Source of the DNA: Stegostoma tigrinum
Taxonomy: Eukaryota
Direction: 5' to 3'
Length of the DNA: 64,000 bases
NCBI RefSeq assembly: GCF_030684315.1
Contig: NC_081355.1
Span: 21,787,316 to 21,851,315, forward strand
Notes under the pieces: generated by a model
Databases searched by the model: none
The model's input: the letters and a program-made list of their open reading frames with translations, nothing else
Told to the model about the DNA's origin: nothing
Shown here: in pieces, positions 8,429 through 42,941 of the stretch
How positions within the stretch are numbered: the stretch's first letter is position 1
How the letters are laid out: every line of letters begins with the position of its first letter
Position numbers and translations under genes: made by a program

Positions 8429-8434
8429 TTTATT
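8429..8434 (-). terminator. Candidate EAF1 polyadenylation signal (AATAAA), implying a ~1.2-kb 3' UTR
   Basis: TTTATT on the + strand at the end of a repeat-free AT-rich stretch downstream of the stop codon; inference only. Confidence 0.4.
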
Positions 8435-9661: not shown

Positions 9662-9708
9662 TCAATCATCACTGTCGCTTCCAGATTCACTCAATTGTAA
9701 GTCATTTC
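9662..9708 (-). CDS. EAF1: ELL-associated factor 1, coding exon 6 (last)
   Basis: (R)NDLQLSESGSDSDD*, identical to the recalled EAF1 C-terminus; TTTAG acceptor; phase consistent. Confidence 0.95.
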
Positions 9709-9902
9709 CTAAAGATAAAAAAGTTACGGGCATGTTACGGACAAAAAGCAACATTTATGTAACTATTCACATTATTTTTATTCTACAGCCAATCCTCCTC
9801 TATAGGGAAATATTAAGTTCTGGCTAGGCAATGTGCCCATGAGGTGCAGTTAGAAACTTAATCCACTTTAACAAACAAGCTTCATTAGGAATCTACCAGC
9901 CG

Positions 9903-9977
9903 CTGGGCCTGCTGTGTTCATCCAGCCTCACATTTTATTATCTTGGATTCTCCAGCATCTGCAGTTCCCATTATCAC
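9903..9977 (+). mobile_element. PLE terminus fragment with tail
   Basis: GGCCTGCTGTGTTCATCCAGCCTCACATTTTATTATCTTGGATTCTCCAGCATCTGCAGTTCCCATTATC, near-identical to the copies at 5740-5780 and 6128-6200. Confidence 0.85.
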
Positions 9978-11587: not shown

Positions 11588-11872
11588 TCAGTGTGCTCAT
11601 AAGTTGATTGCTTCCTGGTCTGCTGGTGCCATTTGTAGCAGCATTTCTGTTACTGTACTGCTGGTATGGCTGTTGCGGTTGCTGTTGGGGCTGGGTTTGG
11701 GATTGGGAGGGAGGTTGCTGTTGAGGTTGCATCTGTGGTGGTGTTGAGGACGGGTGAGCTTCATTTTCCACATCACTGCTGGAACTATCATCACTGCCAG
11801 AGGAACTTCCTGAATCTGAAGAACTACTACTGCTGCTCATCTGTTCAATAATATCAACTTCAGCTCTCAATT
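11588..11872 (-). CDS. EAF1: EAF1 coding exon 5 (Ser/Asp-rich activation region)
   Basis: 285 nt, ELRAEVDIIEQMSSSSSSSDSGSSSGSDD…NGTSRPGSNQLMSTL; AG/GT boundaries; phase 1-1. Confidence 0.95.
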
Positions 11873-13909: not shown

Positions 13910-14270
13910 TTTAGAACCAGAGTAGGCCCTTTGGCCCTTCAAGCCTGCTCCACCATTCATCAAGATCATGGCTGATCTGCCCCAAGCCTCAATTCCTCTC
14001 TTGTGCCAGCTTATCATAGTCCTCCACTCCCCAACATTTCAAAAATCTAACTACCTCCTCTTTAAATACTTTTATTGATTATAGCCTCCACAACTGTCTG
14101 GAATTTCAAAACCTTCACTACCTCCTGCGAGAATAAAGTCCATCACATCTCAGTTTTCAACAAGTGCAACCTTATTCAGTAACTACGTCCCCCAGTTCAA
14201 AATTTCCCCACTACAAGAAACATATCCTCAACATCTACTCTTTCACAGTGTCCCTCTAAACTGTCTAAGT
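13910..14270 (-). mobile_element. CR1 LINE 3' end, degenerate
   Basis: Starts with the typical tail GTAGGCCCTTTGGCCCTTCAAGCCTGCTCCACCATTC…ATCATGGCTGATC, also seen at 17055 and 45860. Confidence 0.7.
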
Positions 14271-14399
14271 TTATGCTCTCACAGTCAGCATACAATACAC
14301 TGACTTTTAGTTCCAGATGCCACAGCCACACAATGACCTGCAATGTTCACGCCATAGGAAACAAAAGACAGGGGACACTGCTTATTAAGCCCACTCAGA

Positions 14400-14595
14400 A
14401 TGGTGCACATGTTGAACCAGATGGGTTTTCTTTTGTAAATGACAAACAAAAATGGTCATCATTAGATTTTTAATTCCAGATTTTGTACCGTATTCAAATT
14501 CCAACATCTGCCATGGTGTGATTTAAATATCCAGGTCCTCAGACCATTAGGTGGGTCCCTAGATGACTAGTGCAGAAACAATACCGCCATACCAT
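14400..14595 (-). mobile_element. tRNA-derived SINE fragment (family of 41555-41920)
   Basis: Contains ATTCAAATTCCAACATCTGCCATGG, the reverse complement of the 41620-41650 motif. Confidence 0.6.
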
Positions 14596-14830
14596 TTCCT
14601 CGTTGTCTTTTGTCAATTTTGAAAATACTGTAAACAACTACAGGAAGTCAAACAAATAAACAGGCAAAGCATACAGATAAACTGTAGAGCAATATATGGT
14701 TTTGGAAAAGGAGGAGGACAGAAAATACAGACTAAATAGTAAGAGGTTGCTGGGGTTTGATTCATCAAGTGGCTTTTCCTGCTTTTAAAAGTGTCATGTT
14801 TCCATTTACACAGATTTTTCGTTGGTATAC

Positions 14831-14997
14831 CTCTTTTTATGTCATCCAGTTGTGGTTCAGGTGATGGGTTGTCCTTTGTTGGAGATGTTTTTGGTCCAGG
14901 ACATGGCTTATTTGGTGCTCTAAACTGAGAGGAAGGCTGAGATCTTCGCACTGCCTGTGATTCCAGTTGAGCCTGGATTTTACTGCTCCCTTCAGCT
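14831..14997 (-). CDS. EAF1: EAF1 coding exon 4
   Basis: 167 nt, AEGSSKIQAQLESQAVRRSQPSSQFRAPNKPCPGPKTSPTKDNPSPEPQLDDIKR; TTTCAG/GTATAC boundaries. Confidence 0.95.
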
Positions 14998-15966
14998 CTG
15001 AAACAATAATTTGTAATCGAACATCAAGGGAGAGTCAGCGATGAATCATTTCATAGGAATAAGAAACTATATAACATTATCAATGCAAAAATTTCCTTAA
15101 AATTACACTGTTAAAGTCTAGAAAAAGAAAATCTCGATGAAGAAAAGTGTCCTCACTTCTTATATATTATGCTTCCATCTTGTGAAGATACTATCACTGG
15201 ATGGGACATAGCTTCATAGTAGCCATTTTTATCTCTGAGCTTATGCACTTGAGTGCCAGGAGACCAAGTAGTTCTGAAAGTCTTAACACAAAGACTGCTT
15301 GTTTCATCACCCAATGTTCACAAATCAATATTTTCCAAGAATAACTCAAGAGTGGTGTTCAGCAATAAAACAAGTACTTCCATGTGAAAACCCTGCCTCC
15401 CCCCCACAACCAGGCACGAGAAAGCTTTTCTGGCATCATTTCTGTAAGATTTCCCAGGATAAAACTATATTTTAAAAGGTTAGAATAAAAACACTGATAG
15501 TATACAAGGAAGAAATTTTAACCAGAGGAGATTTCAGGATTTGTATGAATATTGAAGGGTATAACATTGTCAAGACTCAAAATGCTACAAATCAGGCCGC
15601 TGCAGGTATATATGATTTATAATTTTGAGGAGGTGATCACCAGCCAATTGTTTCAACAAGTACTTAAGAACAAAAGGTTAATGTTAGGAGAATATAAAAA
15701 AATTTAAGAGTTTGGGGATTGAGTAGAGGAACAAGAATAATTTTTGAGAGTTGGCAGAGGCACAATTTGTTCAATGGGCTATTTCTCTTCAATAAAATTC
15801 AATGATTAAATATTTACTACACTGTTGATATATTTAGACTATGACTTTTTATACAACGTAAAATCAGACAAAAAATTAACAAGCCACTGCACAGTATGGT
15901 CGGAAATGCTATAGAAAAGTTACAAAAATATATTTTAAAAGCATTTGAATAATTATGTATCTTTAC

Positions 15967-16103
15967 CTGGTTTTCTTCACCTGTATACTGCTACTGAGCT
16001 TTTCAAGCACAAACTCCCCAGTATCATGGTTAATAATAAGTACGCAGTCCTTCTGATATGGTCTTTTATTACCTTTGAAGACAGTCATTGGTGGAGTAGA
16101 CCC
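15967..16103 (-). CDS. EAF1: EAF1 coding exon 3
   Basis: 137 nt, [45 protein letters not shown]; CACCAG/GTAAAG boundaries. Confidence 0.96.
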
Positions 16104-17039
16104 CTGGTGACCAAGAAACATGATATTATTGCTTTACCTTGTTTCGACTGGTGTCAAGAATTCAAACTGGCAAAACAATACCACAGTAGTCATTAACTAT
16201 TCTACCATATTTCAGCAAAGCTCCTGTGTAATTATTCACACAGCAAATACGACATACAAGGAAAGGTAAAGACAAATATTAAAAGTTGATTTCAGCAAGT
16301 GTATTCCTGAAAATATCAACTTTTTTTCGTATTGAATTATCCAATTATCTAAATCAACTAATGCCAATAACAAAGTTAGAACTTAATCCAATAAAATGAC
16401 AATTTTTTGTTCCCTAATTGAAATGAAGAGTATACTGCACTGATTCTCAAAATTACTGTCTCTTCAGTACTTAAATATAGTGGGATGAAATATTTGCTGG
16501 TTGGGGTGGGTGACAAGTCTTGCTAAAGTAACAATAAGAATTAAGCACTTACTTCAAATCAAATAGATTTGCACAAAACGACATTAATGACACTGATTAT
16601 TAAGGTTTACGGTAAATAACAAAATACATGTGACATACTGGAATTACTTTCTTCACAAAATTTCACTCATCATACAGTAATATAACTTGTCAATGTTCAA
16701 GAATCACTTTCACTAAACATTCAGGATGCTGATTCAAGATGTGATGAGACCACAGATCCCCACTTGTTAAATTCTCGATTTCAATTTCAATTCTCAATTT
16801 GTCAGTTGCTAAGTGGAGGCTATGCATTTCCCCAATTCAGGTGATAGATCTGTTAGTTTCTGAATGAACATTCACACCATAGTTCTAGTAGTCCTCTAAT
16901 TTTCTCCTTGAAATTGTTATTACCAAAGCATCCCATCTTTAACAGCTATGAAGCATTATGCTAAATCCAAACTTTAGTTGCATAACACAATCAAGAAATT
17001 AAATGCTCAGAAAAAAATCTCCTTAGGTGACCTGAGGCC

Positions 17040-17610
17040 ATAGAAAAAGAGAATTGGAGCAAGAATATGCCATTCAGCTCTATACGCTTACTTCTCTATT
17101 CAATATGATCATGGCTGATCATCCAGCTCAGTGCCATATTTCCACTTTCTCCCCATTTTCTTTGATTTCTTTAGCCCAAAGAATTATGTCAAACTCCTTC
17201 TTGAGAACATATGATGTTTTGGCCTTGGCTGCTTTCAGTGGCGGAGAATTCCAAAGATTCACCACCCTGAACAAATTTTGCTGCATCTAAGCAGTAAATG
17301 ACTAAGTAGTATTAGACTCCCCTGTCATCAGGAACTTCCTGCATTTACCTGGTCTAGTCCTGCTAAAATGTAATGGATTTCTAGAAGAATTCCTCCCTCT
17401 CCGGTTTAGTGGATATAGTCCTAACCAAATCATTCTCCATTCATATGTCAGTTTTGCCAATCCAGGAATCAATCTGATCGATTTTCATTGTACTCCATCC
17501 ATAGCCAGAACATCCTTTCTCAAAAAAAAGAGACCAATACTGCACACAATACCCAGCTGTGTGTCCTTCAAGGGCCTGTAAGATTTCAGTAAAACATCCC
17601 TGCTACTGTG
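17040..17610 (-). mobile_element. CR1 LINE 3' fragment
   Basis: CR1 tail motif and degenerate RT C-terminus (GAGACCAATACTGCACACAATAC = reverse complement of the YCVQFWSP region). Confidence 0.7.
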
Positions 17611-17616
17611 CTCAAA

Positions 17617-17973
17617 TCATAGAATCCCTACAGCGTGGAAACAGGCCATTCGGCAAAACAAGTCGACACTGCCCTACAGAAGAACATCCCACCCAGACCC
17701 ACCCCCTACCCATTCCTGGTAACCCTACATTTCCCATGTCTAATCCAGTTAAGTTACACACCCCTGGACATGACGGGCAACTTAGCACGGCCAATCCACC
17801 TAACCTGCACATTTTTGGAGTGTGGGAGGAAACCGGAGCACCCGGAAGAAACCTATGCAGACACGGGGAGAAAGTGCAAACTCCACGGAAATAGTCACCT
17901 GAGGGTGGAATCGAACCCGGGTTCCTGGTGCTGTGAGGCAGCAGTGCTAACCATTGAGCCACCGTGCTACCCC
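17617..17973 (-). mobile_element. Full-length tRNA-derived SINE with CR1-type tail (HE1-like shark SINE)
   Basis: Minus strand reads GCACGGTGGCTCAATGGTTAGCACTGCTGCCTCACAGCACCAGGAACCCGGGTTCGATTCC (A and B boxes), then a conserved core and a CR1 3' tail (GGCCTGTTTCCACGCTGTAGGGATTCTATGA). Confidence 0.88.
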
Positions 17974-18948
17974 TAAGTGCTATCAAATTTCTTCTTCAAA
18001 CGCCAGAAGCTTTGCAATTCAAAAATCACACAAATGAAGGCATCCTATGTGGCTCAAGTTGAAACTTCCCCTATTTTTATTGGTTGTGGTGTTGCACCTC
18101 CTGGCTGCTAAACAGTTTAAATTTTGAATTATTAAAGACAGAACTAAGCTTCAAACAATTAATCCTGTGTCAAAATAATTTCAGCTCCAATTAGAATTAA
18201 CTGCTTCTGCTATACCTCATGAACACTCCCGAGAGGCCTATCAATATTTTTGCAATTTCTCCAGAAACATCTTCATTACATACCAAGTTCCACTCACCAC
18301 AATTTCAACTTTTTCAGGCGCCAGTACCCACAAACTGTCCTGCTCTTAACTTTGCTTGCTCATGGCCCCATTTTTGCCAGTTTCCATTGGCTCCCTGTTT
18401 CCTAAATTATGATCCTTCCTTATAAATACTTTGATGGCTTTGCTCCACACGAGCTCTGTAACTGGCAATCCCATTGTATTTGCATTTATACTGATTTTTT
18501 CAAACTTAGGAAAACATTTTAAAGCTGTTTCACAGGCAATGTTAGAAGTGGCAACAAGGAGATCTATTACTTTGACAGAATTTTGAAGAATATTTTTAAA
18601 AGGAGAGAAAAGAAGCAAGGTAGGGAGGCACTAACCCATATGTACAGTGACATACTTGATTCACCTTTCTCAATTTCTCGTTTGTGTGGCATACAGCCTG
18701 AACTTGAAAAACAACTCAAGATATTGAAAGACAACTTTCTCCCAAATAACCTGTCCAAAAATGACCTTCTGAAGGAAGCCTTACTACAATTTCAGTGAGG
18801 GTAGGGATTCTACTGAAATAACAAGCCAAAGGAAGGATCTGGTACACTTGCACATTAATTTTCTTTTTCCCTGCAATTTGAAAAGAAATCAAAAACCAAG
18901 AGAGGATGTTTGACATATTAAGATTCAAAAAAGATCAAATTAAAATGT

Positions 18949-19046
18949 GTTCTGAAGAAGGGTCACTGGATCTGAAATGTTGACTCTGCTTTCTCTCCAG
19001 ATGCTGCTAGACCTGCTAAGTTTCTCCAGCAATTTTTGATTTTATT
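18949..19046 (+). mobile_element. Older PLE-type terminus (family 3) with degenerate hammerhead
   Basis: TTCTGAAGAAGGGTCACTGGATCTGAAATGTTGACTCTG…AGATGCTGCTAGACCTGCT…TCCAGCAA; related copies at ~23757, 33485, 37300, 49150, 50030, 58630, 58845 and 63505. Confidence 0.7.
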
Positions 19047-19300
19047 CAATATAAATGTTGCCTTGGACACCTGACTTGACAGTATTCTTGTTGAAGCTGC
19101 AGATCATGAATCTGGACTTTGTTACAGTCTCTTAAAATTGGTACAGTCAAAAAGGAGTTGGAAGGATTAGGTGCTGGAGGAATCAATAAGTGAGCTGTGT
19201 TTTGATAAATATTATTTGATTTACAAAACCTATTAAGAGATTAAACAATTTCAATTAAAAAAGAATATAAACAGGATTTATGAGAAGTCTGAAAACTTAC

Positions 19301-19395
19301 TGGGATGTGTGGTAAAGTTATGGTGACTTGATCCCCTTTGCCAACCTGTAGCTCACCCTCACAAGAGGTGTCAATGGAGGCTGGTTTAAAGTCAT
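19301..19395 (-). CDS. EAF1: EAF1 coding exon 2
   Basis: 95 nt, (Y)[31 protein letters not shown]; TTCAG/GTAAGT boundaries. Confidence 0.96.
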
Positions 19396-21059
19396 CTGAA
19401 GGGAAAAAGCGCATAGATCAGATACCAAAAACAGAACATTTTAACAGACCAAATATGGTTACATCTAGCCAATAAAATCACCTCATTTGCTTTGTAGATG
19501 GTTGCTTCTTAAATTGTGCCACTACTCCTTTTTAGAAAGACTTATATAAACATTTTGCTTAGCCACTTTGACGATATTTCAGTTTAAACTCCTATAGAAA
19601 ACAGTATACACAGCACAGAACACAACAATACTCGGACGAAAATTCAAAACTCATTGAGTAATGGCCTTGCATTAAATAATTGTGACATTTTAAATATCCA
19701 CGAACTAGTAAACAACTTTAATTCTTCAAGGTTAGTTCGGAACATGGGGTTTTATTGGGATAAATTTGTTTGTAAGTGTAGCCAGTTGTGAAAACACTTT
19801 GGGCAGAGGGGCTCTATTACAAACATACAAATATGTCCTTATGAGTCATAGAATTGTACAGCATGAAGACAAACCCTTCGATCCAACTCATCCATGCCAG
19901 CCAGACATCCTAATCAATCTAGTCCCATATGGCTTGGCCAGCATTTGGCTTGTAGCCCTCCAAACCCTTCCTATGCACATACCAGATGCCTTTTAAATGT
20001 TGTAACAGTACCAGTCTTCAAAGGGATTTGCAGTACAAGGCAGACTTGTGGTGCAACGAAAATACAATAGTTAGACGAAATGAAGGCAAAGTTGGAGTAC
20101 TAGGGAAATAAGTTTTGGTGGGCTCTCCATCAATTATATTCACATTTATTTGCACTCTCCTACTTTTTGTATATGAAGATGGGCAATGAGTATCTACAAA
20201 CAATGAGCATCTATAAACACACATAGCCCTGTCATCACCCAGCTTTCCGTATACACCATTTGTCTATCAATGTCATTCAACAGCAATTGCAAACAACGTT
20301 CCCAGTCGATTTAGGACTAAGAGGGTCCTCAACACCTTTGAAATTAAGGTCCAACAGGTAGCCAATGCATCAGTATAGGAAAGGAATGTAGAAAATAGGG
20401 AGAAAAAACAAGAGCTCCAGTGCTCAGACAAATCAAGCCTGCACAAGATAGGTTGCAACTAAGGTGGAAAACACACTCAATCAGTCTGAAATACAGTCTA
20501 CAATGCTCCCTGTAAGATAGATCATGAGAAACACTTACGGTAGAAGAATTACTGCAGTGTTCTGGCCAGATATTAGCATACTACGAACATAGGTCAGGAG
20601 TATGCCATTCAGCCTTGAGTTTACTCTCTGTCATTGAAACAAATCATCTGTTTCAATCTCTACTTAACCAATTATATTCCCTAAACCAAGATTACTAATA
20701 TATTAACCTCGGTCTAAAATTTGTACATTGTACTTTGAAAGGAAGACTTTCAAATTTCTGCAACTTTTTTAAAGAAAGACTTCTAATTTCTATTCCAAAA
20801 ATCCTTAGTCATAATTTTAAGATTGTAAATTTTACACTGAACGAGTTCCAAGAAAAGAAAACTTTGCGGTAACCACCCAATCAACACCCTAATAAACACA
20901 ATCAATCAGATCAATGTTGGCCATGGCTCAGTAATCATTTGTGGAAGACTGCGCTCAAGCCAACAGAGCACAAATTTAGACTGGCAGTTCAATGTAGTAT
21001 TTAAAAAACGTGTGTTATATTTTATGTTTAATATTTACAATTCTATCTGTCAGCTGGGG

Positions 21060-22200
21060 ACTTGAAACTGCATGCATCTCAGGTAGATGGCAGGAAGCAG
21101 ATGGTAATGATCAAAGGGTATTTTTCTGACTGGAAGCCCACGTCCTGTGGAGTACCACATGGTCCAGTTCTGGACCCTGTTATTTGTTGTGTATATTAAT
21201 GATCTAGACATGAATCTAGGAGGTATGATCAGTAAATTCACAGATGAAACAAAATTGGTGGTGTGGCAAATCGTGAGGAGCTTAGGCTACGTAGTCAGGC
21301 TGGTCCGATGGTCTTGACAATGGAAAATTCGTTCTTGAAAAGTATGAGGTGATGCATTTTGGGAGAACTAACAAGGCAAGCACGTACATGTCAAATGGTA
21401 GGACTCAAGGAAAAACAGAGGACCCAAGGGACCATGATGTGCATGTCCATTGCTTCTTGAAGGCAGCAGGACAGTGGATATGCTGGGTAAGAAGGTACAT
21501 GGACTATTTGCCTCTATTGGTCAAGGCACTGAATACAAGGCCATGTAGGTTATGATGAAGCTGTAAATAACATTTGTTAGGGCACAGCTGGAATACTTTG
21601 TGCAGTTCTGGTCACCATACTATAGGAAGGATGTGACTGTACTGGAAGAGAACAGTTTCAACTGAACAGGAGCGAAACTGCTGGAAAGCGACAAGATATA
21701 ATAGAGATAAGAGCTCTGAAGAAGGGTCTAGGCCCGGAACGTCAGCTTTTGTGCTCCTGAGATGCTGCTTGGCCTGCTGCGTTCATCCAGCTACACACTT
21801 TGTTATCTAAGCTATAAGAGAATTGTTTTGCTTACAGCAAAGAGGGCCGCGATTGAGGTATATAAGCTTAAGTTTGATAGACATATCGGTAGTTAGACAG
21901 AAACCTTTCCCCGTACAGGAGTCAATAATCAGGGAGCACAATTCTAAGATAGGGAAAAAGAGAGGTTTAGAGGGGATTTCAGGGATTATTTTATCCCCCA
22001 GGAGGTCGAGGGTATCTCGAATTCTCTGCGGGAACTCCGAAGGCATTAAAGGACTATTCAGATGAATACTTGAAAGGCTATAGCATACAAGGTATGGGCC
22101 AAGAGCTGGAAAATGGAATTAGAACAGACGTTCGATCGCCGGCACAGACGTGATGGGGCGAAGGACCTTTTCCGTGTTGTATAAACTCTATCTCCGGTGC
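21060..22200 (+). mobile_element. CR1 LINE 3' ~1.1 kb, degenerate, interrupted by a PLE terminus at ~21712-21807
   Basis: RT C-terminal remnants (MHFGRTNK; YFVQFWSPYYRKD) and CR1 tail. The inserted PLE terminus has CTGAAGA…GGAAC (mutated GAAA box). Confidence 0.8.
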
Positions 22201-22871
22201 TATAATGAAGAACAGGGAGAAGCCACAATATTTTATCCCACGACAGGGGAGTCACAAAAAAACTGAAAAGCAGAATACTGCGGATGCTCGATGTTATTAC
22301 ATTGCCAACGATGAGATATTGCTGTGTGCGCTAGTTTGCCGGATTTGTAGCCCTGCAAAGCGCTTTGGGACATCCCGAGGCCGTGGGAAGCGCTTTAGCA
22401 AAGCAAGTCTACGCTTGGATGGCCCACCAATCGTGCAAACGTGAAATCGGGGTATCATTTACTACTTCAATCCTTGCGCGTTTACAGTTGCCGTGGGTGG
22501 GAGGGGGAAGAGAAAGAGGGAGTCAGAGGAGGCAGTGTTTTTGTTTCGGAGGGCTTCGCGGAGGGCCGGGTACAACTTTTGCGGTGAATCCCAGAGCGAC
22601 ATCGTGCCTTGAGGTCGTGGTAGGCAGCCAGGAGTTCTCAGAGCAGCCTGGTAAACACGGGAGTGAAGAGGGCCAGTTCCCTTCATTTTCGGAACCAGAA
22701 CACACTCACTCACATGCTCTCTCTCTTCCGCCCCCCTTTCTGTTTTGTTTTCCCTGCCCTATGTCACAGCCAGAGGATGCGGCCTGGAGTTGAGAGCCGG
22801 GGCGCAGGCACGCTCCCAAGGCCCGCCTCTCCGGCCTACCTTCCCGTTGCCCCCGCCTCGGCTTCACTCAC

Positions 22872-22974
22872 AGCGGATGGTGTGGAACGAGCTCTTGGGC
22901 CGTTTCTCGAAGCTCTCGCCCAGTTTGAGCACGTGCTCTTCCTTGCCCAGCGCCGGCTGCGCGGTACCATTCAT
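22872..22974 (-). CDS. EAF1: EAF1 coding exon 1
   Basis: 103 nt, [34 protein letters not shown]; GTGAGT donor. The six exons total 834 nt = 277 aa + stop, in frame. Confidence 0.96.
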
Positions 22975-23159
22975 CGCCGAACGCTTCAAACATCAATTCT
23001 TCTCCTTTTTCTCCGCCCTCCGAACCAGCCGACCTTCCTTGCGGTCTCTCTCCGCTTTCGGATGTTTCGAAAGCAAAAACGCGACCGACCGACCCGCGTG
23101 CGGCGGCCGTTAAATTCAAACAGTGATGGTGCTGAGCTCGCGAGCAGCGCCCGCGCGCA

Positions 23160-23243
23160 CCGATAGCGACGCGAGTGGAGACTGGGGACGCGATCTGTCC
23201 GCTGTGGGTCACTGGGGTACGGAGGGATGGTCCTGTCTGCTCG
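23160..23243 (+). other. METTL6: Candidate METTL6 5' UTR exon 1 (start approximate)
   Basis: Donor TCG|GTAAGA at 23243/23244 inside the CpG island; exon 2 has an acceptor 21 nt upstream of its first ATG, so an upstream exon is required. Alternative donor CAG|GTAAAT at 23446/23447. Confidence 0.5.
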
Positions 23244-23899
23244 GTAAGAAATATTCAGGCTCGGAGATTTTTTTAACCTTGACGTTTGTGTTTTGTTTTC
23301 CTGTGGGTGGGTTTGTGTCCCGCCCTGCTGCTCCGGTTGAATCAGACCCGCTCAAGTCGCGCGCCCCACAACAACGTGCATTTACATAGCGCTCTGGTTT
23401 TGGTTCGAAGTTCTTAAAATGGCTCAAGGCCTAGCGAGGGTGGCAGGTAAATGGTTTGATAAATAGTAATCTCTGCGATACGCGGACTCGTAACCGCGTC
23501 GTTGAAACCCAAGGAAGTTAGGGAGAGGGACAAAAATCCGTATAACATGTTGGAAATACTCAGCAATTCTAGCAGCTTGTGTGGAAATGGGAACCAGGAT
23601 AATTGTTTCAGCGCTGTGACCTTTGTTTAGAATGGTTCTGCTAGACCCTCTAGCGTTTATTTTAAATTTCAAATTTTCAGAATCTGTAATATTTTAGTTT
23701 TGTTTAGTGTAGTGATAATGGAAGAGCGTAACCACGAGGGAGAAGGATTTCTTAACTTCTGAAGAATGGTCACTTGGCCTGAAAGTTAACTCTGATTTCT
23801 TTCCACAGAAGCTGCCAATGCTGCTGAGTTTTTCCAGCAATTTCTGTTTTTGTTCCTGATTTCCAGTGTCTGAGTTATTTCAGTTTTTAGTTGGAAGAG

Positions 23900-24970
23900 T
23901 TTCTGAAGTGTGGTCAAGAGAATTTTCTTGATCAATGTGTGCGAGCCCAACAAAGAAAGGAGCATTCATTGTAAAATCTAGTTTTGTGGAAAATAGTTGG
24001 CCATCTAGCTCAGGGGAATGTTAAGTAGACAGTGATCAAAACAGCATGAAGTTTAAGTTATCCTTAAAAACAGGACAAGGAATGATTTAGAATAAAAGTA
24101 CTCAATAGGAGAAGAAACAGTTTTATTGGGGTGGGAATGGATTGTCCAGGTAAATTGAGTTCAAAGATTAGTAGGTGAAATTATAATGGACTGTCCGTAA
24201 AAAGAAGCTTTGGATGATGACGAGATATAGAATAAGATGAAGCAGAAAGATAATACACAAGAACCAGGTTGAATATAGAAAGTTCAGAGGAATGTGCAAA
24301 GAACATAATTGAAGCAAAGATGTGATAATCTGATAGACAGCAAAATATACATTTTTTTTATGAAAACCTTCTGTAGGAATGTCATATTAAAAGGGTGGGA
24401 AAAGGACAAATTGGCCCGATTTTATGGAGTTAAAAAGGAATCTGCATGGAGACAGGGGACTTGTTGGATGTACTAAATTAAAACTTTTCGTCAGTCTTTA
24501 TCATGTAGGAAGATGCTGCTGATGTCATATGGAAGAAGAAGTAATTGATACACCAGATGAGCTATTCTTAAAGTTGTTAAATCACCAGGACTGGAAGGGC
24601 TGCACAGGACAAGGAAGGAAATTGCAGAGGTAATGGTTGTAATCTTCCAATCACCCATTGCTACATTTGTGGTGCCAGAGAACTGCAAATGTTGCAGACT
24701 TGCTCAGACAGAATGTGAGAATAGCCCCTGTAACTAAAGGCCAATCTAACTTCTATGGTAGGGAGGCTTTTAGAAATAATAATCTGGGACGAAATTGCCT
24801 GTCATTTGGACAAGGGTGGATTAATTAAGGAACTGTTTAAGGCAAGCTATGTTCAACAAACTTGATTTAGTTTTTGGTAAAGAATGAGGTGGATACATGG
24901 TTGATAATGTGCCACACAACGGACTTGTCAGAAAAATCTACTGCCAATGCAATAACAGAAACAATGACAG
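23900..24970 (+). mobile_element. Highly degenerate CR1 ORF2 fragment
   Basis: Remnant motifs (GACAGTGATCA; GGTGCCAGAGAACTGCAAATGTT; TTTAAGGCAAG…ACAAACTTGATT). Confidence 0.55.
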
Positions 24971-25049
24971 TTTCAGAGTTGACTGGTACTTCTCAAGGTT
25001 CTTGAATTGGTGTATATATCTAATCTAAGTTTCTGCCATATCCAAGAGT

Positions 25050-26160
25050 TGGAATGATGACTGCCTGATACACAAGGATCTTAGTATCATTAGGGACATC
25101 ATAGTCGAAGGCACCCAAGGATGCGAGCCTAAAGTCGGCCCTCACAGATTGGATGTGATGTCAAGTCTCCACATTGATGTCAGTGTTAGATGATATTTAG
25201 GTGGATTTCTTAATGGAGAGATGGATGAAAACTTGACCTGCGACAGGATGGTAAGGGACTTGAATCTTGTTGATGCCTACTGTATTTTCCACGAATTATG
25301 TCAGTGTCATTTTCTTCTTGGATTTCAGCTGGTTGAAGTTGGAAAGTTTTCTGTCCATCCTGTAGACAATGTCTAGATGGCTGGGAAGCTTGTTCTAGAC
25401 ATGATGAGAAATGCTGGTGATGAAGATGGAGAAAAGGGTGGGAGTGATGATACGTCCATGTCTTGACCTCAAATATTCTGTCATTACCACTGATGAGGAC
25501 ATTGCTAACATTTTGTCTTGGAGGATTTTGAGAATTTCACTGGATTTTGACAGGATCTTTCATGGCACTTCCTGACTGAGTCAAAACCCTTGATCAGGTT
25601 GATGAAGGCCACGTAGATGGATTAGTTTTGTTCCTGGCAAGACGCTTGAGAAGTATCGTGAACATTGTTTGAGACAGATTCTCCACATCATCTGGGAGGA
25701 CAGACATATTAACATTCAGCATCCTTGAAGCAAACTAACAGCACCAGCATAAAGACCATGATAATCTGAAACCAACTCTGTTGTGCTGGCCATGTGCTTA
25801 GGATGCACAAACCGAAGTAAATCTTCACCCAGCTCAAGGAAGACAGTTGAATGAGAGGACGGCAAACAACGTGTTTTGAGGACTTCTGAAGGATTTTCTC
25901 AAGAAATGCAACAAAGATGTCAACGTGTGAGAGACCCTTGTTCAGAAGAAAACAAATTGAAGGAAAGTCTTGTGTGAAGTGAACACCTGATGGCAAGAGG
26001 AAGTATGGAAAAGGAGCCAGAGAAAAGAATGCCAAAGATCTCCAGGCAGAGGATCAGTCCCACTTCCTGTAAAATCCTGCCGAATATAAGGTAGAAATGC
26101 AGCCATGCAAGGACCCACCGAACACATGAACGGTGACACAGAATTTCCTAGGTGGGCAAT
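25050..26160. mobile_element. RTE-clade LINE remnant, 5' part inverted (minus ~25050-25705, plus ~25710-26160)
   Basis: Minus part carries RT remnants (LYVAFINLIK, ITPTLFSIFI). The plus part resembles the RTE C-terminus seen at 63150-63465. Confidence 0.5.
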
Positions 26161-26169
26161 CATATTTGT

Positions 26170-26945
26170 TAGCGAGTGATTTCCAACAACAAAGTTGACA
26201 AATGCAAAGGAGTTTGAAGTAATGCACTTCGGTAGGAAGGACAAAGAAAGACATTTATTAAAATAAATACAGTTCAAATGGAGTGCAAAACCAGAGAGGC
26301 TGGGGCCTTTATGTGCATAAATAATGGGTTACGGGGATCATTGAAAAAAAAACAATTATTTGAGAATGCAGATCATAAGTTTTTATAAATAAAGACATAT
26401 AACACAAAAGCCATGAGGTTATGATATTTTAAAACACACTTTCAGGCTCAGTTAAGTATTATGTTTGATTTGGGACACCTCACTTTTTAGAGAGCAGGGG
26501 TAGAAAACATTTACAAAAAAATTCCAGGGATGAGGCGTTTCAATTCTGTGGATAAGTTGAAAAGGCTGAGGTTGGTTTCTGTCGGGTGTTTAAAAAAAAG
26601 CGCTGGAGCCGTTCAGAAGTTTGAGGGGCCTAGACAAAGTAGATGTAGGAAATTGTTCCCATTGACGGAAGTTTTGAGAGCTAGAGCATGCCATTCAACA
26701 TGATTAACAAAAGGAGCAAAGGGAACATGTGGAGATCTTTTTTGTACAATTAATGATTAAGACCTGGAATGTCTTCACTTGAGTTCTTGAGGCAGATACA
26801 ATTATGCCTTTCAGAAGGGCATTAGGTTAGCATTTGAAAAGCGAATTTGCTCGGCTATGGGTAAAGGGACAAGGTGATTCTGGGGTACAGCGGTTACTTT
26901 TGCATGGACAACCTGCTAAATGATCTCATGTTGTAACCATTATAG
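26170..26945 (+). mobile_element. CR1 LINE 3' fragment, degenerate
   Basis: TTTGAAGTAATGCACTTCGGTAGGAAG (EVMHFGR) through to the tail. Confidence 0.65.
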
Positions 26946-27549
26946 GATTCTAGACCTGGACCAGTAACTGGCATTCTCTGAGATATGTGGACTGATAACT
27001 GGAGCTCTTTGAAATATACACTGATCTGCAGGTACCTTAAATGACACTGTCTTGGAGTATCCTTATATATAATAAGGGCCTCTGTGGTTGAATGTTTTGG
27101 GAAAATGATGTAGGAAGGTTTTGAGGAAGAATCTCCTATAGACAGTGAGTGGTGATGGTAGGGGGAGGGGCTTGGATTAGTTCACAGGTCGGCGCAACAT
27201 TGAGGGCCAAAGGGCCTGTTCTACGCTGTATTGTTCTATGTTCTATAACTGTTCCCCTTGATAACTTTGGCTCCCTCTTGGATATACAGCCTAAAGAATA
27301 TCTTGGTCTGAGGTACATACCACATACAATGGAACACCCCAAGATAGCTGCAACAAAATGTGTAGCATGTGCACTGCAAGGCTATATGTTCACAACTTTA
27401 TTAAAAAAAAGTAAACCGTTTTGTATTATCTTTAAATGCAATGCTAACCTGGGGAGAAGCTTTCAATTGCTTTGTACTGTCTTGAAATTTAAATAACAAT
27501 CTGAAGTTTATTTTTCTTTTGCATTAAGACCATCTGGAATACTGCAAAC

Positions 27550-27888
27550 ATGGGAGATAACATGGAAATAAATCCTTTTTGTGATATCCAGCCATATCAA
27601 ACCGAAGGGATAAACAACTGGTCTTTAAGCAATAAGATAGTAACCGTAACACCCTCCAGATCAGAAATGCCTTCTCAAATCAGAGGGCAGAAGGGAAGGA
27701 TCCTTACCCCTGAAGAAGCAGAAAAGCTCATGAAAGATCAGACCTTAGTGTCAGATTTTAAGCAACAGAAGCTTGAAAGAGATGCACAGAAGAACTGGGA
27801 TTTATTTTACAAAAGAAACAGTACAAATTTCTTCAAAGACAGGCATTGGACAACCCGAGAATTTGAAGAATTGAAAGCATGTAGAGAA
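27550..27888 (+). CDS. METTL6: tRNA N3-methylcytidine (m3C32) methyltransferase METTL6, first coding exon (exon starts 27529)
   Basis: …GRILTPEEAEKLMKDQTLVSDFKQQKLERDAQKNWDLFYKRNSTNFFKDRHWTTREFEELKACRE, matching recalled METTL6; GTAAGT donor. The start codon could be 27550, 27562 or 27667. Confidence 0.95.
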
Positions 27889-28114
27889 GTAAGTGATATT
27901 GAATGAAGAAAACCCAGACTTGTGATTTTAATGAACTGCCATTGCTGTAGTAAGTCCAGTGAAAACTGCAATGAGCATACTGGTTTTTTTTCTTAAATGA
28001 AGGGGTGTAAATGTGGCCAGTCACTCCATAAATCTTGCCTTGATGATTTCCAGGGAAGTACTTCACTTGGTATAATTTCGATCTGAACAGTGTAACCATC
28101 TCATCCTCAGAAAT

Positions 28115-29354: not shown

Positions 29355-29680
29355 AGATGGCAAGGACTGCGAATGCTGGAAGTCAGAGTTGATAAAATGA
29401 TGATAGCATCAGAGGAGTAGGAAAGTCAAAAAGTCAAGTCAGAACTGGGGAGGGGGCAGGAAAGTCAGAAATAAATGGGGCTGTGTGGGGCTGACGAATC
29501 TCTACAACCCCTACCTTCCCCCAGGCTCACTTTTTTTCCCCAGCCCCATTTGTTTCAAAGTTTCCTTACCCCTCCCCAGCCCTGATGAAGAGTCCCAATC
29601 TGAAGCATCAACTTGCCTGCTCCTCTGCCCTCTGACATGCTGTGCTCCTCCAGCTCCACATTTTATGTATTCTCCAACCT
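29355..29680. mobile_element. Old inverted PLE termini
   Basis: GGACTGCGAATGCTGGAAGTC tail on the left; CCTGATGAAGAGTC…TGCTGTGCTCCTCCAGCTCCACATTTT on the right. Confidence 0.6.
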
Positions 29681-29815
29681 GACCATCCTCGTCATCTCTA
29701 TTCTTGCTGAATATATCCACTTTTTAGACATGCAGTGCAGTTAATCATTTTACAATATTAAGTGTTCTGTAAAAGTTCATTTCTTTAAAAAATATTGCTT
29801 GTTTGCTTCTTACAG

Positions 29816-29950
29816 TTTGAGAATCAAAAACTAATTGTCTTGGAAGCTGGCTGTGGAGTTGGAAACTGCTTATTCCCTCTTTTAGAGGATGATCTAAATG
29901 TCTTCATTTATGCGTGTGATTTCTCTCCTCGAGCAATAGAATTTGTGAAG
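29816..29950 (+). CDS. METTL6: METTL6 coding exon 2 (SAM-binding motif I)
   Basis: 135 nt, FENQKLIVLEAGCGVGNCLFPLLEDDLNVFIYACDFSPRAIEFVK; TACAG/GTACAC boundaries. Confidence 0.96.
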
Positions 29951-30126
29951 GTACACATAGGATTGTTTGTAATTGGCTTTAATGTGTTTCTTGATTTGAA
30001 TTTACATCTTTGAAGTATTTAGGGTAGAGCAGATGGTACGCGTACAGTAGAAATACTTTAAGTAGTAAAGGTGGTTTGCACAGAAAATGTATGATACAAC
30101 TAGTTCTCAACAGCATTTATCTGAAT

Positions 30127-30239
30127 AGAAAGCGGGACATAACACCAGCGCTTCGTCGGAGGCTCACTGATGATGTTACCTAGAATGGTGACGAAACGTC
30201 TGAAAACTAACCTTCCAGCTCAGCGAGCAAACTCACATC
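30127..30239 (+). mobile_element. 113-bp PLE-type 3' end insertion (distinct family) with perfect 13-bp TSD
   Basis: CATTTATCTGAAT at 30114-30126 and 30240-30252; CpG-rich insert in an AT-rich intron; carries a hammerhead motif. Confidence 0.85.
30167..30200 (+). ncRNA. Minimal type I hammerhead ribozyme motif, sense to METTL6 intron
   Basis: CTGATGA-T-GTTACC(TAGAAT)GGTGAC-GAAAC-GTC: intact core, 6-bp helix II, ACGT palindromic helix III, GUC site, CA/TG 2-bp helix I. Confidence 0.82.
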
Positions 30240-30464
30240 CATTTATCTGAATGTAGAATCTTGAAAGAAAAATAAACTTGTGTCTGACCTTGCAAAACCT
30301 TAGGTAGCCCCAAAGTTCTTTGCAACCAATTAAATAGTTGAAATGTAGGGCAGAATCTTGTAGGGATCTTGAGCAATGTGGACTATGGCAGGATTTGTGG
30401 CAGAGTCAGACAAGAAGTCCAGCAAGGCCAATCTCTGCATCAGAATCATTTCCCTCTATCTTTT

Positions 30465-30580
30465 TGATATGCTTAGTCAACTTATTTAGGCATGTAATGA
30501 TGTATCTCTGGAGCGGCTGTGACTTGAACTCAGGCCTTTGGCCCTTAGATAGGGATACTGCTACTACACCTCAAGAGCCC
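30465..30580 (-). mobile_element. Short tRNA-derived SINE, degenerate
   Basis: Inverse of the element at 45117-45230 (GGTTCAAG B-box region followed by …GTTGA(C/T)TA(A/G)…). Confidence 0.5.
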
Positions 30581-31839
30581 TCCATTCTTTATGCTTTTGA
30601 CAAGAAGCATAGCAGATTCCTTGCTAGACACCAGCAAGTAGTTATTAAGAGAGATTACTGCATGTTAAACTCCTTGATGCTATCCAGTTCTCCGCGTTTA
30701 ATATTTGGTTTTCTATTTTTTCAAGCTTGCTAAACAAGCTAGATGTCAAGAAAACGAGACATTGAAACCGCAGCAAGTACTTAATGAGTTCAGTTTGCCA
30801 CTTGATCTGAAAGACATCTATTTTGGTCACCTGGCACCAGCATTTCCAGGCATGCATCATGGGCATTGGCCACACGTGCCCTGTGGCCCAGACATCGGCA
30901 TCTGATTTGTGTCAGCCTTTAACAGTCCTCGTGGCACATCTGTCAGTTATTTACAATATGCTTCTGCACTTCAGTGTTGCATTGGCAACTAGCATTGTAA
31001 TGCTACAGAAAGGACACTGCTCCTGGACTGGTCCCATCTCTGGGCTCTTAACATGCTATCACAGCATCCACTCACTCTGAGCATTGCTGAATGCTGATAG
31101 CATCCCTGCCTTGTCTTGCCGTTTTGCACTTTACACCGCCCTCAGCCAGAGATAGTAGTCTCGCCTTACTTTTGTCTTACTTTGCTGTTGAACCCAGACA
31201 CAAGTAAGTCTGTTGTGGTTGGCAGTAGGCCTCAGTCAAGTTAAGGGAGCTAGCCGTCGCTCAGGGGTCTGGCACAGTAAATAAAGGGCATCCTTTGATA
31301 CTTGGTCAGAGGCTTGGAAACAGTCATTTGGCAGTCAACCAGTACACTGTCCACTTAAGGGGTGAGGAGCTGAATGTCAGGCAGCATGTCACCCTTCTAG
31401 AGTCTTTCCTCCTTGAAAGTGAGGATATGTTAAGAGAGACAAAGGTGAGTGATTCAGCTGTTACTTTTTGTGTAGGTGGGGTTGTGCCCCAAGTGAGTGA
31501 TTAGGCAGCACAGACGACATGTCAGGTTACTGCTCTTGGGGTTTGGACTTGACAGTAGGTGAGGGAAGATGTGGCATGAAATAGTGAGATTGGTTTGGCT
31601 TGAGAATTGGTGGGAAGTGGGTATAATAAGAGGTCATAGGTGTAAGGTACCAGAGAGAAGTACTTGTGTTGCCAAGTTTAACAACTTCTTCAAATGCTCC
31701 TATTAATTCATGTCCTATTTAGAATATCAGTTGAATGTTTAAAAAAAAAATTGTTGGAACTAATCATATTTTCAAGTGCAATTGATAGGAACATTCTGTA
31801 CACATTCCTTATCCACTCTTATGTTTGTTTCTTTTAAAG

Positions 31840-32010
31840 CAAAATCACTTATATAATGCTGAACGATGTAAAGCCTTTCAGTGTGATCTAACTAAGGACA
31901 ATTTACTGGAGAATGTACCAGCAGACTCCGTCGATGTTGTAACACTGATCTTCGTGCTTTCTGCTATTCATCCTGACAAGATGCTGCTGGCATTAGAAAA
32001 TATATATAAA
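31840..32010 (+). CDS. METTL6: METTL6 coding exon 3
   Basis: 171 nt, QNHLYNAERCKAFQCDLTKDNLLENVPADSVDVVTLIFVLSAIHPDKMLLALENIYK; AAAG/GTTAGT boundaries. Confidence 0.96.
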
Positions 32011-32493
32011 GTTAGTAGTCAATGGTAGACATGTTGTCATCTTATTCATGGTGATTTAATTAGGGAACATTCAGAGAGATTAGATAAATATTTTCTGTCA
32101 AAGTGGTGAGGTTGAACTTGAATTAAATTAATATATGCTATGTTAGCTTTGCTATCTGCTCTCAGAAACATGTACATTTTATAACTTAAAAATAGTCAAC
32201 ATGATATCTAAAAGAATTTTTTTTAATTGGAAGGAGACTCCATTGGAGAGCGATGGGCATGTCAGAAATTTATCTTGTAAATGGAGAAAAATAAAAATTA
32301 GTAGAGTTGTTTGAATACTTTGCTATAAATAGGCTTGTTTATAAAGCTGTATGCATCCATATCTTATGACTTCATGTTGGCTTTTGCTAATTCACCTGAG
32401 AATGTGACTAATACAGATGAATTATTCCTGTAGGCCCACTTTGTACATTGTTGTGAAAGAATTGTGACTCTGCTTCTTGTGTGCCTGTGACAG

Positions 32494-32635
32494 ATACTGA
32501 AACCTGGTGGAAGTGTCTTATTCAGAGATTATGGACAGTATGATCACACAATGCTTCGATTTAAAAATGGCCACAAACTTGGGCCAAATTTTTACGTTCG
32601 TCAAGATGGAACAAGATCTTTCTTCTTTTCGGATG
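32494..32635 (+). CDS. METTL6: METTL6 coding exon 4 (not in ORF track)
   Basis: 142 nt, ILKPGGSVLFRDYGQYDHTMLRFKNGHKLGPNFYVRQDGTRSFFFSD; GACAG/GTGAGA boundaries. Confidence 0.96.
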
Positions 32636-33111: not shown

Positions 33112-33916
33112 TAATTGTGGATAGAATTTCCTGAGTCAATACCAATTACCTGTTGGCCTACAGCACATGTGTTGGTCACAAGGAGGCCCCAGCGAGATTT
33201 TTTTTCCCCATTTCAGCTGGTTCTGGATTTCAGCTGGTTTTGAACTAGAGAAAAACCTGAGTATTGGTTTGTGGTATTCATTTTCAACTAAGTTGGCCAA
33301 TCAAATTAACATTCATATTAAATCTGTAATGATTTAATGTGCTCCATAAGATGTGTGTACTCAGAACTAGGTTCATTTTAATTTGCCAAAATCTCATGAC
33401 ATTGCAAATTGTCCATCTTCCTTCTGACATAAGATTGCAGCTTTGTCAGCTATTGCAAATCTGTAAACAACTTAATATTTCCTGCAGCAAAACTGGAAGT
33501 TGCTGGAAAAGCTCAGTAGGTCTGGCAGCATGTACGATGAGAAATCGGAGTTAAAGTTTTGAGTCTGGTGACCCTTCCTCACTGTTCTGAAGGACCTGAT
33601 GAGCTTTTCCAGCAACATCTGTTTTTGTTTCTGATTTACAGCATCCACCGTTCTGTTGGTTTTTAATTAATATTACCTGTTGGCTATTGTCATTATTGTG
33701 CTGCTGCCTAAGACTAATTTCTAATGTTTTTAGTGCTATTTTTCAGTTTCCAACTCATGTCAAAAATTGTAATAGCAGTATTGTATGTAGTTTTCCATGG
33801 TACACACATTTACTTACTGAATGACATATTGTGTTCAATAGCTGTTACATTGGAGCAGTATAAAACATTAACTTTGCACTGCCATACAGGAAAATAAAAT
33901 TGTATCAGTGATAATG
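33112..33916 (+). repeat. 805-bp segment duplicated at 42137-42941 (copy 1, in last METTL6 intron)
   Basis: Constant offset of 9025 bp; identical ORFs 33339-33554 and 42364-42579; only one mismatch noticed (GGCCCC vs GGCCCT). Confidence 0.95.
33485..33666. mobile_element. Fold-back PLE-type termini (family 3) with 13-bp TSD; also present in the duplicate
   Basis: GTTGCTGGAAAAGCTCA inverted against TGAGCTTTTCCAGCAAC; TSD TTAATATT(T/A)CCTG at 33472-33484 and 33667-33679. Confidence 0.8.
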
Positions 33917-42136: not shown

Positions 42137-42941
42137 TAATTGTGGATAGAATTTCCTGAGTCAATACCAATTACCTGTTGGCCTACAGCACATGTGTTGG
42201 TCACAAGGAGGCCCTAGCGAGATTTTTTTTCCCCATTTCAGCTGGTTCTGGATTTCAGCTGGTTTTGAACTAGAGAAAAACCTGAGTATTGGTTTGTGGT
42301 ATTCATTTTCAACTAAGTTGGCCAATCAAATTAACATTCATATTAAATCTGTAATGATTTAATGTGCTCCATAAGATGTGTGTACTCAGAACTAGGTTCA
42401 TTTTAATTTGCCAAAATCTCATGACATTGCAAATTGTCCATCTTCCTTCTGACATAAGATTGCAGCTTTGTCAGCTATTGCAAATCTGTAAACAACTTAA
42501 TATTTCCTGCAGCAAAACTGGAAGTTGCTGGAAAAGCTCAGTAGGTCTGGCAGCATGTACGATGAGAAATCGGAGTTAAAGTTTTGAGTCTGGTGACCCT
42601 TCCTCACTGTTCTGAAGGACCTGATGAGCTTTTCCAGCAACATCTGTTTTTGTTTCTGATTTACAGCATCCACCGTTCTGTTGGTTTTTAATTAATATTA
42701 CCTGTTGGCTATTGTCATTATTGTGCTGCTGCCTAAGACTAATTTCTAATGTTTTTAGTGCTATTTTTCAGTTTCCAACTCATGTCAAAAATTGTAATAG
42801 CAGTATTGTATGTAGTTTTCCATGGTACACACATTTACTTACTGAATGACATATTGTGTTCAATAGCTGTTACATTGGAGCAGTATAAAACATTAACTTT
42901 GCACTGCCATACAGGAAAATAAAATTGTATCAGTGATAATG
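42137..42941 (+). repeat. 805-bp duplicate of 33112-33916 (copy 2)
   Basis: Direct comparison of both copies; breakpoints TAATTGTGG… and …GTGATAATG. Confidence 0.95.

What the first reader, a model, noticed from the sequence alone, without database searches (positions are those of the whole stretch)
30114..30252. Intact sense-strand hammerhead core freshly inserted in a METTL6 intron
Seen: a 113-bp insert with a perfect 13-bp TSD and undecayed CpGs, ~180 nt downstream of the exon donor at 29950. It consists almost only of a hammerhead with all core nucleotides and a 6-bp helix II, and is the only copy of its family in the window. It is transcribed as part of METTL6 pre-mRNA. Inference: helices I and III are too short for efficient monomer cleavage, but trans-dimerisation with transcripts of the same family through the ACGU palindrome could cut the intron, letting element expression influence host pre-mRNA.
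Basis: partly seen in the sequence, partly recalled or inferred. Interest (0 to 1): 0.7.

Follow-up and report, generated by a model that had tools for sequence, protein, structure and literature searches.

The report
Penelope stub in shark METTL6 intron
This is a young 113-base scrap of a common jumping gene (over 6,000 copies with the same ribozyme core in this genome) in a METTL6 intron; its tiny self-cutting RNA motif is intact and likely does cut in the jumping gene's own RNA, but this lone copy is probably idle and I found no good sign that it controls the host gene.

Summary
In detail: a 113-bp insert with a perfect 13-bp TSD, 7 CpGs and a complete sense-strand hammerhead core, 177 nt into a METTL6 intron; a relative has the empty site. 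It is the 5'-truncated 3' end of a Penelope-like retroelement (RT + GIY-YIG) carrying the published minimal hammerhead; the 39-nt core occurs 6,285 times exactly. Host regulation is not supported: intact motifs in 800 kb of kinase-gene regions are 18 sense to 21 antisense; the active dimer is predicted 9-15 kcal/mol worse than two monomers; two same-species samples show no empty allele. The exon after this intron is often skipped in two RNA-like runs, but it has weak splice sites and the same skip is annotated in five other vertebrates. Side result: in 31 tiny fold-back copies of this family, 26 of 62 arms start exactly at the predicted cut (at most 6 elsewhere), suggesting cleavage inside the element's own RNP. 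The scan noted such footprints and similar intronic cases before, on other DNA. Verdict: ordinary insertion, new member of a known kind.

The parts
30114..30126 (+). Target-site duplication, left copy (13 nt; last 3 nt also match the element)
   Evidence: single copy at the empty site in organism B
30127..30239 (+). Inserted 5'-truncated 3' end of a Penelope-like element; runs from -73 to +39 relative to C17; ends at the first of the family's two 3'-end clusters
   Evidence: 0 of 113 differences from the majority of 55 copies
30240..30252 (+). Target-site duplication, right copy
30167..30200 (+). Minimal type I hammerhead core with unpaired U at 30174, 6-bp helix II (30175-30192) and C17 at 30200; predicted cut 30200/30201
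   Evidence: matches the min-HHR description in PMC4209133
30158..30216 (+). Helix I: 3 proximal pairs (30164-30166/30201-30203) and 5 possible distal pairs (30158-30162/30212-30216) across an asymmetric loop
   Evidence: predicted; distal pairs 0.5-0.8 in a 76-nt fragment, under 0.1 in the whole insert
30196..30199 (+). ACGU palindrome in place of helix III
   Evidence: sequence
30124..30183 (+). Last 19 codons and stop (in loop II) of the element's RT + GIY-YIG ORF
30173..30239 (+). Start of the element's ORF: AUG = A9, the unpaired U and G10.1; overlaps the ORF end by 11 nt in another frame
   Evidence: frame open from this AUG into the RT-side sequence in L085, L094; L194; L192 from a few codons later
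30115..30123 (-). 9 nt of the target that are the reverse complement of the element just 5' of the truncation point (singleton)
29816..29950 (+). METTL6 exon before the intron
29951..31839 (+). METTL6 intron (1,889 nt, GT..AG) holding the insert
   Evidence: joint
31840..32010 (+). METTL6 exon after the intron (171 nt, in frame; AAG acceptor, A|GTTAGT donor); alternatively skipped

Best explanation
The insert is a short, young 3'-end fragment of a very abundant Penelope-like retroelement that landed in a METTL6 intron, and its intact minimal hammerhead is likely an idle passenger there. Shown: it matches the family's 3' end letter for letter, has a TSD and an empty site in a relative, and ends at one of the family's two 3'-end clusters. 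Inferred mechanism: the GIY-YIG domain nicked both strands 13 nt apart; RT started internally about 40 nt past the ribozyme cut site on a tandem or read-through RNA, copied about 113 nt and jumped to the target over a 3-nt microhomology. The core is intact because the copy is young, not because the host keeps it. The ribozyme's job is likely in the element's own cycle: it sits on the ORF stop/start overlap and probably cuts some element RNA when the element protein is bound, as recorded by tiny copies that begin at the cut. The intronic copy has no partner in cis and keeps only 67 nt of the ORF start, so it probably lacks the protein-binding region and is spliced out uncut nearly always.
For: 6,285 exact copies of the 39-nt core, reversed control 0. 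Upstream of the core, longer copies carry RT motifs and a GIY-YIG with CxxC (RVT_1 44.4 bits over the 29.6 cut-off). 3' ends of 70 arms: 35 at +40..+50 and 31 at +73..+82, inverted pairs usually using one of each, as for the two RT start sites of PAc (PMC11167929). Insert equals the family majority at 113 of 113; 7 of 55 copies do too; 19 of 55 keep all five CpGs outside the core. Empty site in organism B. Intact motifs in 80 gene-oriented regions: 18 sense, 21 antisense; with ACGU intact 15/13; this family 13/7; about one sense-strand intact motif per 44 kb, so the METTL6 case is common. Active dimer predicted 9.2 (76-nt) to 14.9 (113-nt) kcal/mol above two monomer ensembles. Normal GT..AG splicing across the intron in run X17. 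26 of 62 arms of tiny fold-back copies start at C17+1, p about 1e-10 against a uniform spread over 8 positions, 1e-7 after moving 4 ambiguous arms.
Against: Exon skipping right behind the intron is high in the two RNA-like runs of this species (X13: skip joint depth 46.6, no inclusion joint listed; X17: 92.5 skip vs 77.4 inclusion) and absent from one run of organism C; species, tissue and library are confounded and contig depth is a poor measure. The strand test is small, cannot exclude a mild bias and had no positive control (a CR1-like repeat was 22/20). Nearest-neighbour energies ignore tertiary contacts. GIY-YIG scored under Pfam's cut-off (18.9 vs 22.6). Simple genome-wide counts of arms starting at +1 (60) were not above +3 (157) or -2 (50), though these counts mix junctions with mutations. 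That the protein-binding site is missing is by analogy with PAc only.
Confidence: 0.85

Rival explanations
1. The intronic hammerhead is cut in trans (dimer with family transcripts, or helped by the element protein), and the cut affects METTL6 pre-mRNA, for instance by promoting loss of the next exon.
For: Core identical to the family majority; family-matching RNA-like contigs are abundant in X13 and X17 (summed over all loci); the family's motif probably cuts in vivo; skipping of the next exon is frequent in this species and not seen in one run of organism C; conserved intronic hammerheads of amniotes have been proposed as splicing regulators (PMC6155905, passages).
Against: No sense depletion; dimer predicted unfavourable; low in vitro activity of linked dimers (PMC4209133); hammerhead-cut introns still splice (PMC2995048, passages); the same exon skip is in proteins of Scyliorhinus torazame, a gecko, a godwit and two rodents; the exon has weak splice sites; insert is lineage-specific.
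Confidence: 0.05
2. The insert shifts METTL6 splicing without catalysis, for example as a decoy branch point and AG (a CTAAC-like motif followed by CAG at 30207-30218) or by slowing definition of the next exon.
For: Sequence shows the motif; skipping is frequent in this species.
Against: No joint into the insert is listed (6 rows hidden); spacing of branch motif and AG is much shorter than usual (own knowledge); the skip exists in species far from this insertion.
Confidence: 0.06
3. The 113-bp unit is its own non-autonomous SINE-like or retrozyme family rather than a truncation product.
For: 5' ends show some clustering at -72..-94 and -50.
Against: 5' ends run continuously from -45 to -1555 into the ORF; no tandem monomers here; the exact 5' junction is not shared by other copies; identity to ORF-bearing copies up to 99%.
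Confidence: 0.03

Closest known systems
Minimal hammerheads (min-HHR) of metazoan Penelope-like elements (Cervera and De la Pena 2014, PMC4209133; read parts 1-2 of 4 of the text, no supplements)
   Same: Type I, no helix III, palindromic 15.2-16.2, one unpaired base between 9 and 10.1, G10.1-C11.1 pair, long helix II, short helix I; thousands of solo copies from truncated elements; copies in opposite orientation close together.
   Different: Helix I proximal part only 3 bp; a shark family (searches 'Stegostoma + Penelope': 0 papers; 'shark + hammerhead ribozyme + Penelope': one review using 'shark' only for the shape). That paper had no in vivo evidence of cutting; here copy ends mark the cut.
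Poseidon element PAc of Anolis carolinensis (Frangieh et al. 2024, PMC11167929; read parts 1-2 of 4, no supplements)
   Same: RT + C-terminal GIY-YIG; ORF starts at the base of stem II with the cut about 26-27 nt downstream; two internal RT start sites giving a 30-40 nt optional tail; AT-rich target.
   Different: RT start sites lie about 70 and 104 nt into the ORF here (upper site 111-118 in PAc); the ORF stop also lies inside the ribozyme; PAc RNA-seq showed no ends at the cut, whereas this family's tiny fold-backs start there.
Conserved intronic hammerheads of amniotes (RECK, C10orf118/CTCL, DTNB; PMC6155905 and PMC10761166, passages)
   Same: Sense-strand type I hammerhead in an intron of a host gene.
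   Different: Those are canonical, active as single motifs and conserved across amniotes; this one is minimal, lineage-specific and identical to thousands of selfish copies.
Non-LTR retrozymes (bioRxiv 10.64898/2026.07.22.740005; read part 1 of 5 and passages)
   Same: PLE-derived, hammerhead-bearing, non-coding; over 40% of Xenopus copies overlap introns though depleted there per base.
   Different: Retrozymes are tandem units with two or more ribozymes; this is a single truncated end with a TSD.

Membership tests
EN+ Penelope-like element | Single ORF with RT and C-terminal GIY-YIG endonuclease | tested here: met
   RVT_1 over cut-off; GIY-YIG E 0.0018 but under cut-off; order RT then EN in L189-L191, copies 98-99% identical to the insert at their 3' end
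EN+ Penelope-like element | [quoted passage not shown] | tested here: met
   IIY/VIY..CxxC..YIG followed by histidines in translations; read by eye
EN+ Penelope-like element | 5' truncation, inverted 5'-truncated partner, optional 30-40 nt tail, TSD | tested here: met
   two 3'-end clusters about 35 nt apart; 47 of 71 arms had a neighbouring extra segment, mostly inverted; TSDs of 8-14 nt in 13 of 24 solo copies (window copy included)
EN+ Penelope-like element | RT phylogeny sister to telomerase RT | not tested
   No tree built; homologues are unnamed shark and flatworm RT proteins
Penelope/Poseidon clade | [quoted passage not shown] | tested here: inconclusive
   No CxxC-like cluster seen by eye in the linker; no reference alignment or tree
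Minimal hammerhead (min-HHR) | All core nucleotides, G10.1-C11.1, unpaired base between 9 and 10.1 | tested here: met
   descriptor gives 0 hits on reversed sequence of 800 kb
Minimal hammerhead (min-HHR) | No helix III; palindromic 15.2-16.2 | tested here: met
   ACGU at 30196-30199
Minimal hammerhead (min-HHR) | Self-cleavage at C17 | not testable with these tools
   Indirect only: 26 of 62 fold-back arms of the family start at C17+1; nothing for this copy
Domesticated intronic hammerhead (RECK type) | Orthologous conservation across species | tested here: not met
   Empty site in organism B
Domesticated intronic hammerhead (RECK type) | Canonical three helices, active as monomer | tested here: not met
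   No helix III; helix I probability about 0.2 in context
Non-LTR retrozyme | Tandem units with at least two complete hammerheads | tested here: not met
   Single motif, no second family copy in the window

The most novel reading that the evidence does not exclude
This Penelope family's minimal hammerhead really cuts in vivo, and the many sense-strand intronic copies are latent cut sites that element RNA or protein can switch on; at METTL6 the cut, or the insert itself, drives skipping of the next exon and so loss of the methyltransferase core. This would be a genome-wide, transposon-gated way to change host splicing.
Probability: 0.05. Interest if true: 0.75.

Novelty: new member of a known kind. 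Interest (0 to 1): 0.28.

Why it matters
The locus itself is ordinary: about one intact sense-strand minimal hammerhead per 44 kb of gene region in this genome, with no sign of being purged, which argues these motifs are nearly harmless in host pre-mRNA. What has value is the family evidence: whether PLE minimal hammerheads cut in vivo is open in the papers read (PMC4209133: no in vivo evidence; PMC11167929: no RNA-seq ends at the site), and the pile-up of copy ends at C17+1 makes that testable. If the host-splicing reading were true, tens of thousands of introns would carry transposon-gated cut sites.

Tried and rejected
DNA search of the genome with the 113-mer found nothing, not even itself, because common words are skipped; a pattern search replaced it. 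Rfam: no hammerhead match at gathering or E<=10. Whole-insert folding z-scores were not significant (-0.6; -1.6 for 76 nt). Idea that annealing of element RNA to the target overhang sets the truncation point (9-nt reverse complement in the TSD): the other 12 of 13 solo copies with TSD >=8 nt show 3-6 nt, equal to the permutation mean 3.67, and the genome holds only this one case at this junction: singleton, not a rule. Flank T/A skew as a proxy for gene direction around 23 single-motif copies: mean 0.003 +- 0.010, but left and right flanks did not correlate (-0.09), so uninformative. Genome-wide counts of arms starting at +1, +3, -2 (60, 157, 50) showed no peak but mix junctions with mutations and an A-run; 5 of 30 inspected +1 hits were mutated cores and at least 3 more were internal deletions. 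No RNA holder was listed as such for the stretch; X13 and X17 are taken as RNA-like only from exon-only cover and GT..AG joints. Bisulfite run X21 (1% read) gave no usable cover of the unique flanks. Density of intact motifs in gene regions (39 in 800 kb) versus unanchored flanks (21 in 300 kb) does not differ (p 0.19). Fong 2009 (PMC2755206) was not held; cited only through PMC2995048. A search on METTL6 isoforms (listing only) showed no paper on this skip. I did not check whether the other species with the exon skip have any insert in this intron.

Full report
1. Observation. The window shows two identical 13-nt copies at 30114-30126 and 30240-30252 around 113 bp. The insert has 7 CpGs, observed/expected 1.01 against 0.29 in the rest of the window. 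It holds a full hammerhead core on the + strand: C3-A9 at 30167-30173, an extra U, a 6-bp helix II, G12-A14, ACGU and C17 at 30200. Helix II is predicted at 0.98 or more in three contexts; proximal helix I (3 bp) at about 0.5 in a 76-nt piece and 0.2 in the insert or intron context. There is no helix III. Rfam has no match. The host is METTL6 on the + strand; its upstream exon is 100% identical to proteins labelled Stegostoma tigrinum. The insert begins 177 nt after the donor at 29950, in a 1,889-nt intron.

2. Empty site and age. A contig of organism B (run X5) aligns over 29640-30126 and continues in the sequence behind the second TSD: one TSD copy, no insert; its flank differs by about 5%. 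A depth-3.8 contig of organism C probably bridges the empty site too (inferred from record 8 and indels of the same depth; the joint row was not shown). In two samples of the same species (X1, X2) single contigs run unbroken through each TSD into the insert and no empty joint is listed (15 of 26 joints shown), so both look homozygous for the insert; one may be the assembled individual. The insert equals the majority of 55 copies spanning it at 113 of 113 positions; 7 of the 55 do likewise, median 2 differences (copies were selected for an exact core, so they skew young). It is young but not exceptional.

3. What it is. The 39-nt core occurs 6,285 times exactly (3,178 +, 3,107 -; control 0). 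In 70 copies examined (the first ones on contig C1) similarity extends 45 to 1,555 nt upstream into an ORF with RT motifs and a GIY-YIG carrying CxxC. Near-unit copies are about 2.5 kb; RVT_1 passes its cut-off, GIY-YIG does not. The ORF ends with a stop in loop II, and starts at an AUG made of A9, the unpaired U and G10.1, so the ribozyme straddles an 11-nt stop/start overlap. 3' ends fall in two clusters, +40..+50 (35 of 70) and +73..+82 (31 of 70) from C17; inverted pairs mostly use one of each. This is the anatomy of EN+ Penelope-like elements (PMC8557442, introduction and passages) and of PAc, whose RT starts at two internal sites and whose ORF starts at stem II (PMC11167929). The motif is the min-HHR of PMC4209133. 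The window copy runs from -73 to +39, with 3-nt and 2-nt microhomologies.

4. Does the family's ribozyme cut? Earlier notes of this scan gave the lead that copy ends mark the cut. I tested it for this family. Plain counts of arms starting at +1, +3 and -2 were 60, 157 and 50 and are confounded. A search for tiny fold-backs, anchored at +6 on both arms with a free gap of 0-30, found 31 loci. All 31 were fetched: 26 of 62 arms begin at C17+1, at most 6 at any other position; 19 of 31 loci have such an arm; 4 are perfect +1/+1 palindromes; the TSDs differ between loci, so these are separate events. Against a uniform spread over 8 positions p is about 1e-10, 1e-7 after moving 4 arms with a shared T, and 0.002-7e-6 per locus. 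Best reading: a minority of element RNAs are cut at C17 and the 3' product is copied (inference, about 0.65). An RT stall or junction hot spot at the same base is not excluded. Such copies are rare against thousands of uncut ones, in line with PAc, where uncut RNA is the main substrate.

5. Does this copy act on METTL6? (a) Strand bias. From 139 kinase-domain matches I picked by hand 80 regions of 10 kb at or between exons of multi-exon genes, dropping whole-domain matches. Orientation is supported by T>A skew in 80% of them. Intact motifs: 18 sense, 21 antisense (95% interval 30-63% sense); ACGU intact 15/13; this family, all hits, 13/7; solo copies 5/0; a second family 74/64; a CR1-like control 22/20. 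Strong sense depletion is excluded, a mild one is not, some regions may run beyond genes, and no repeat served as a positive control. (b) Energetics. The double hammerhead is predicted 9.2-14.9 kcal/mol above two monomer ensembles (tertiary contacts not modelled). (c) Literature. A single min-HHR showed no activity and linked dimers little (PMC4209133); the PAc ribozyme cut only with protein, and its minimal RNA template needed the first 172 nt of the ORF (PMC11167929); this copy keeps 67 nt. Introns cut by a hammerhead were still spliced, unlike with a fast HDV ribozyme (PMC2995048, passages citing Dye 2006 and Fong 2009, not read directly). (d) RNA. Runs X13 and X17, RNA-like by their exon-only cover, show the joint 29950 to 32494, skipping the 171-nt exon after the intron (depth 46.6 and 92.5; inclusion joint none listed and 77.4); X14 of organism C shows inclusion only. 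Against: the exon has an AAG acceptor and an A|GTTAGT donor, and the same in-frame skip is in 5 of 120 listed METTL6 proteins (this species, a gecko, a godwit, two rodents) and in 2 of 53 cartilaginous-fish proteins (this species and Scyliorhinus torazame). The higher level here stays unexplained; both runs are one study and contig depth is a poor measure.

6. Mechanism, committed. Shown: TSD, empty site, identity to the family 3' end, end at the first 3' cluster. Inferred: two nicks 13 nt apart, internal RT initiation about 40 nt past C17, early jump to the target over 3 nt of microhomology. A 9-nt complementarity between target and element just 5' of the truncation may have helped in this event, but it is a singleton. 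The ribozyme is a passenger that is probably removed uncut with the intron (0.85).

7. Novelty. New member of a known kind. No paper on this species' Penelope elements was found, nor one reporting copy ends at the cut (listings and the papers named above); subscription journals and supplements were not seen. The scan has noted the same kind of footprint and similar intronic cases on other DNA; those notes are leads, not support. Interest 0.28: low for the locus, raised by the family-level cut footprint tested here.

Noticed in passing
window 31840-32010: In-frame METTL6 exon is skipped at about half or more of contig depth in two RNA-like runs; the skip removes the middle of the methyltransferase domain and is annotated as an isoform here and in other vertebrates. 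X13 also has a contig running from this exon into the next intron (31947-32110).
   Followed up: partly
L225-L255 (G000, 31 loci): Tiny fold-back copies of the family begin at the predicted ribozyme cut in 26 of 62 arms.
   Followed up: yes
window 30173-30183; L085, L094, L194: The conserved unpaired base between A9 and G10.1 is the U of the element's start codon, and the previous unit's stop codon lies in loop II: ORF end, ORF start and ribozyme overlap.
   Followed up: partly
   Followed up: partly
L006, L007, L030, L048, L062, L063: 5' ends cluster at -50/-51 from C17, about 30 nt behind a TATA-like stretch; may be the element's transcription start.
   Followed up: no
window 30115-30123: Target holds a 9-nt reverse complement of the element directly 5' of the truncation point; unique in the genome.
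   Followed up: yes
window 5685, 63509 (+), degenerate at 18952, 23759: Minimal hammerheads of other Penelope-like families; the family of 5685 is the commonest intact one in gene regions.
   Followed up: partly
window 33112-33916 and 42137-42941: An 805-bp direct duplicate at 99.9% identity, one copy in the last METTL6 coding intron.
   Followed up: no
window 8001-28000 versus 28001-56000: T/A skew flips sign near the METTL6 start, consistent with a divergently transcribed neighbour on the minus strand (not identified).
   Followed up: no
window 1-2200: G-rich, strongly skewed simple repeat.
   Followed up: no
L109-L188: None of five other repeats tested shows orientation bias in these shark gene regions (e.g. 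CR1-like 22/20), unlike the antisense bias recalled for mammalian LINEs.
   Followed up: no
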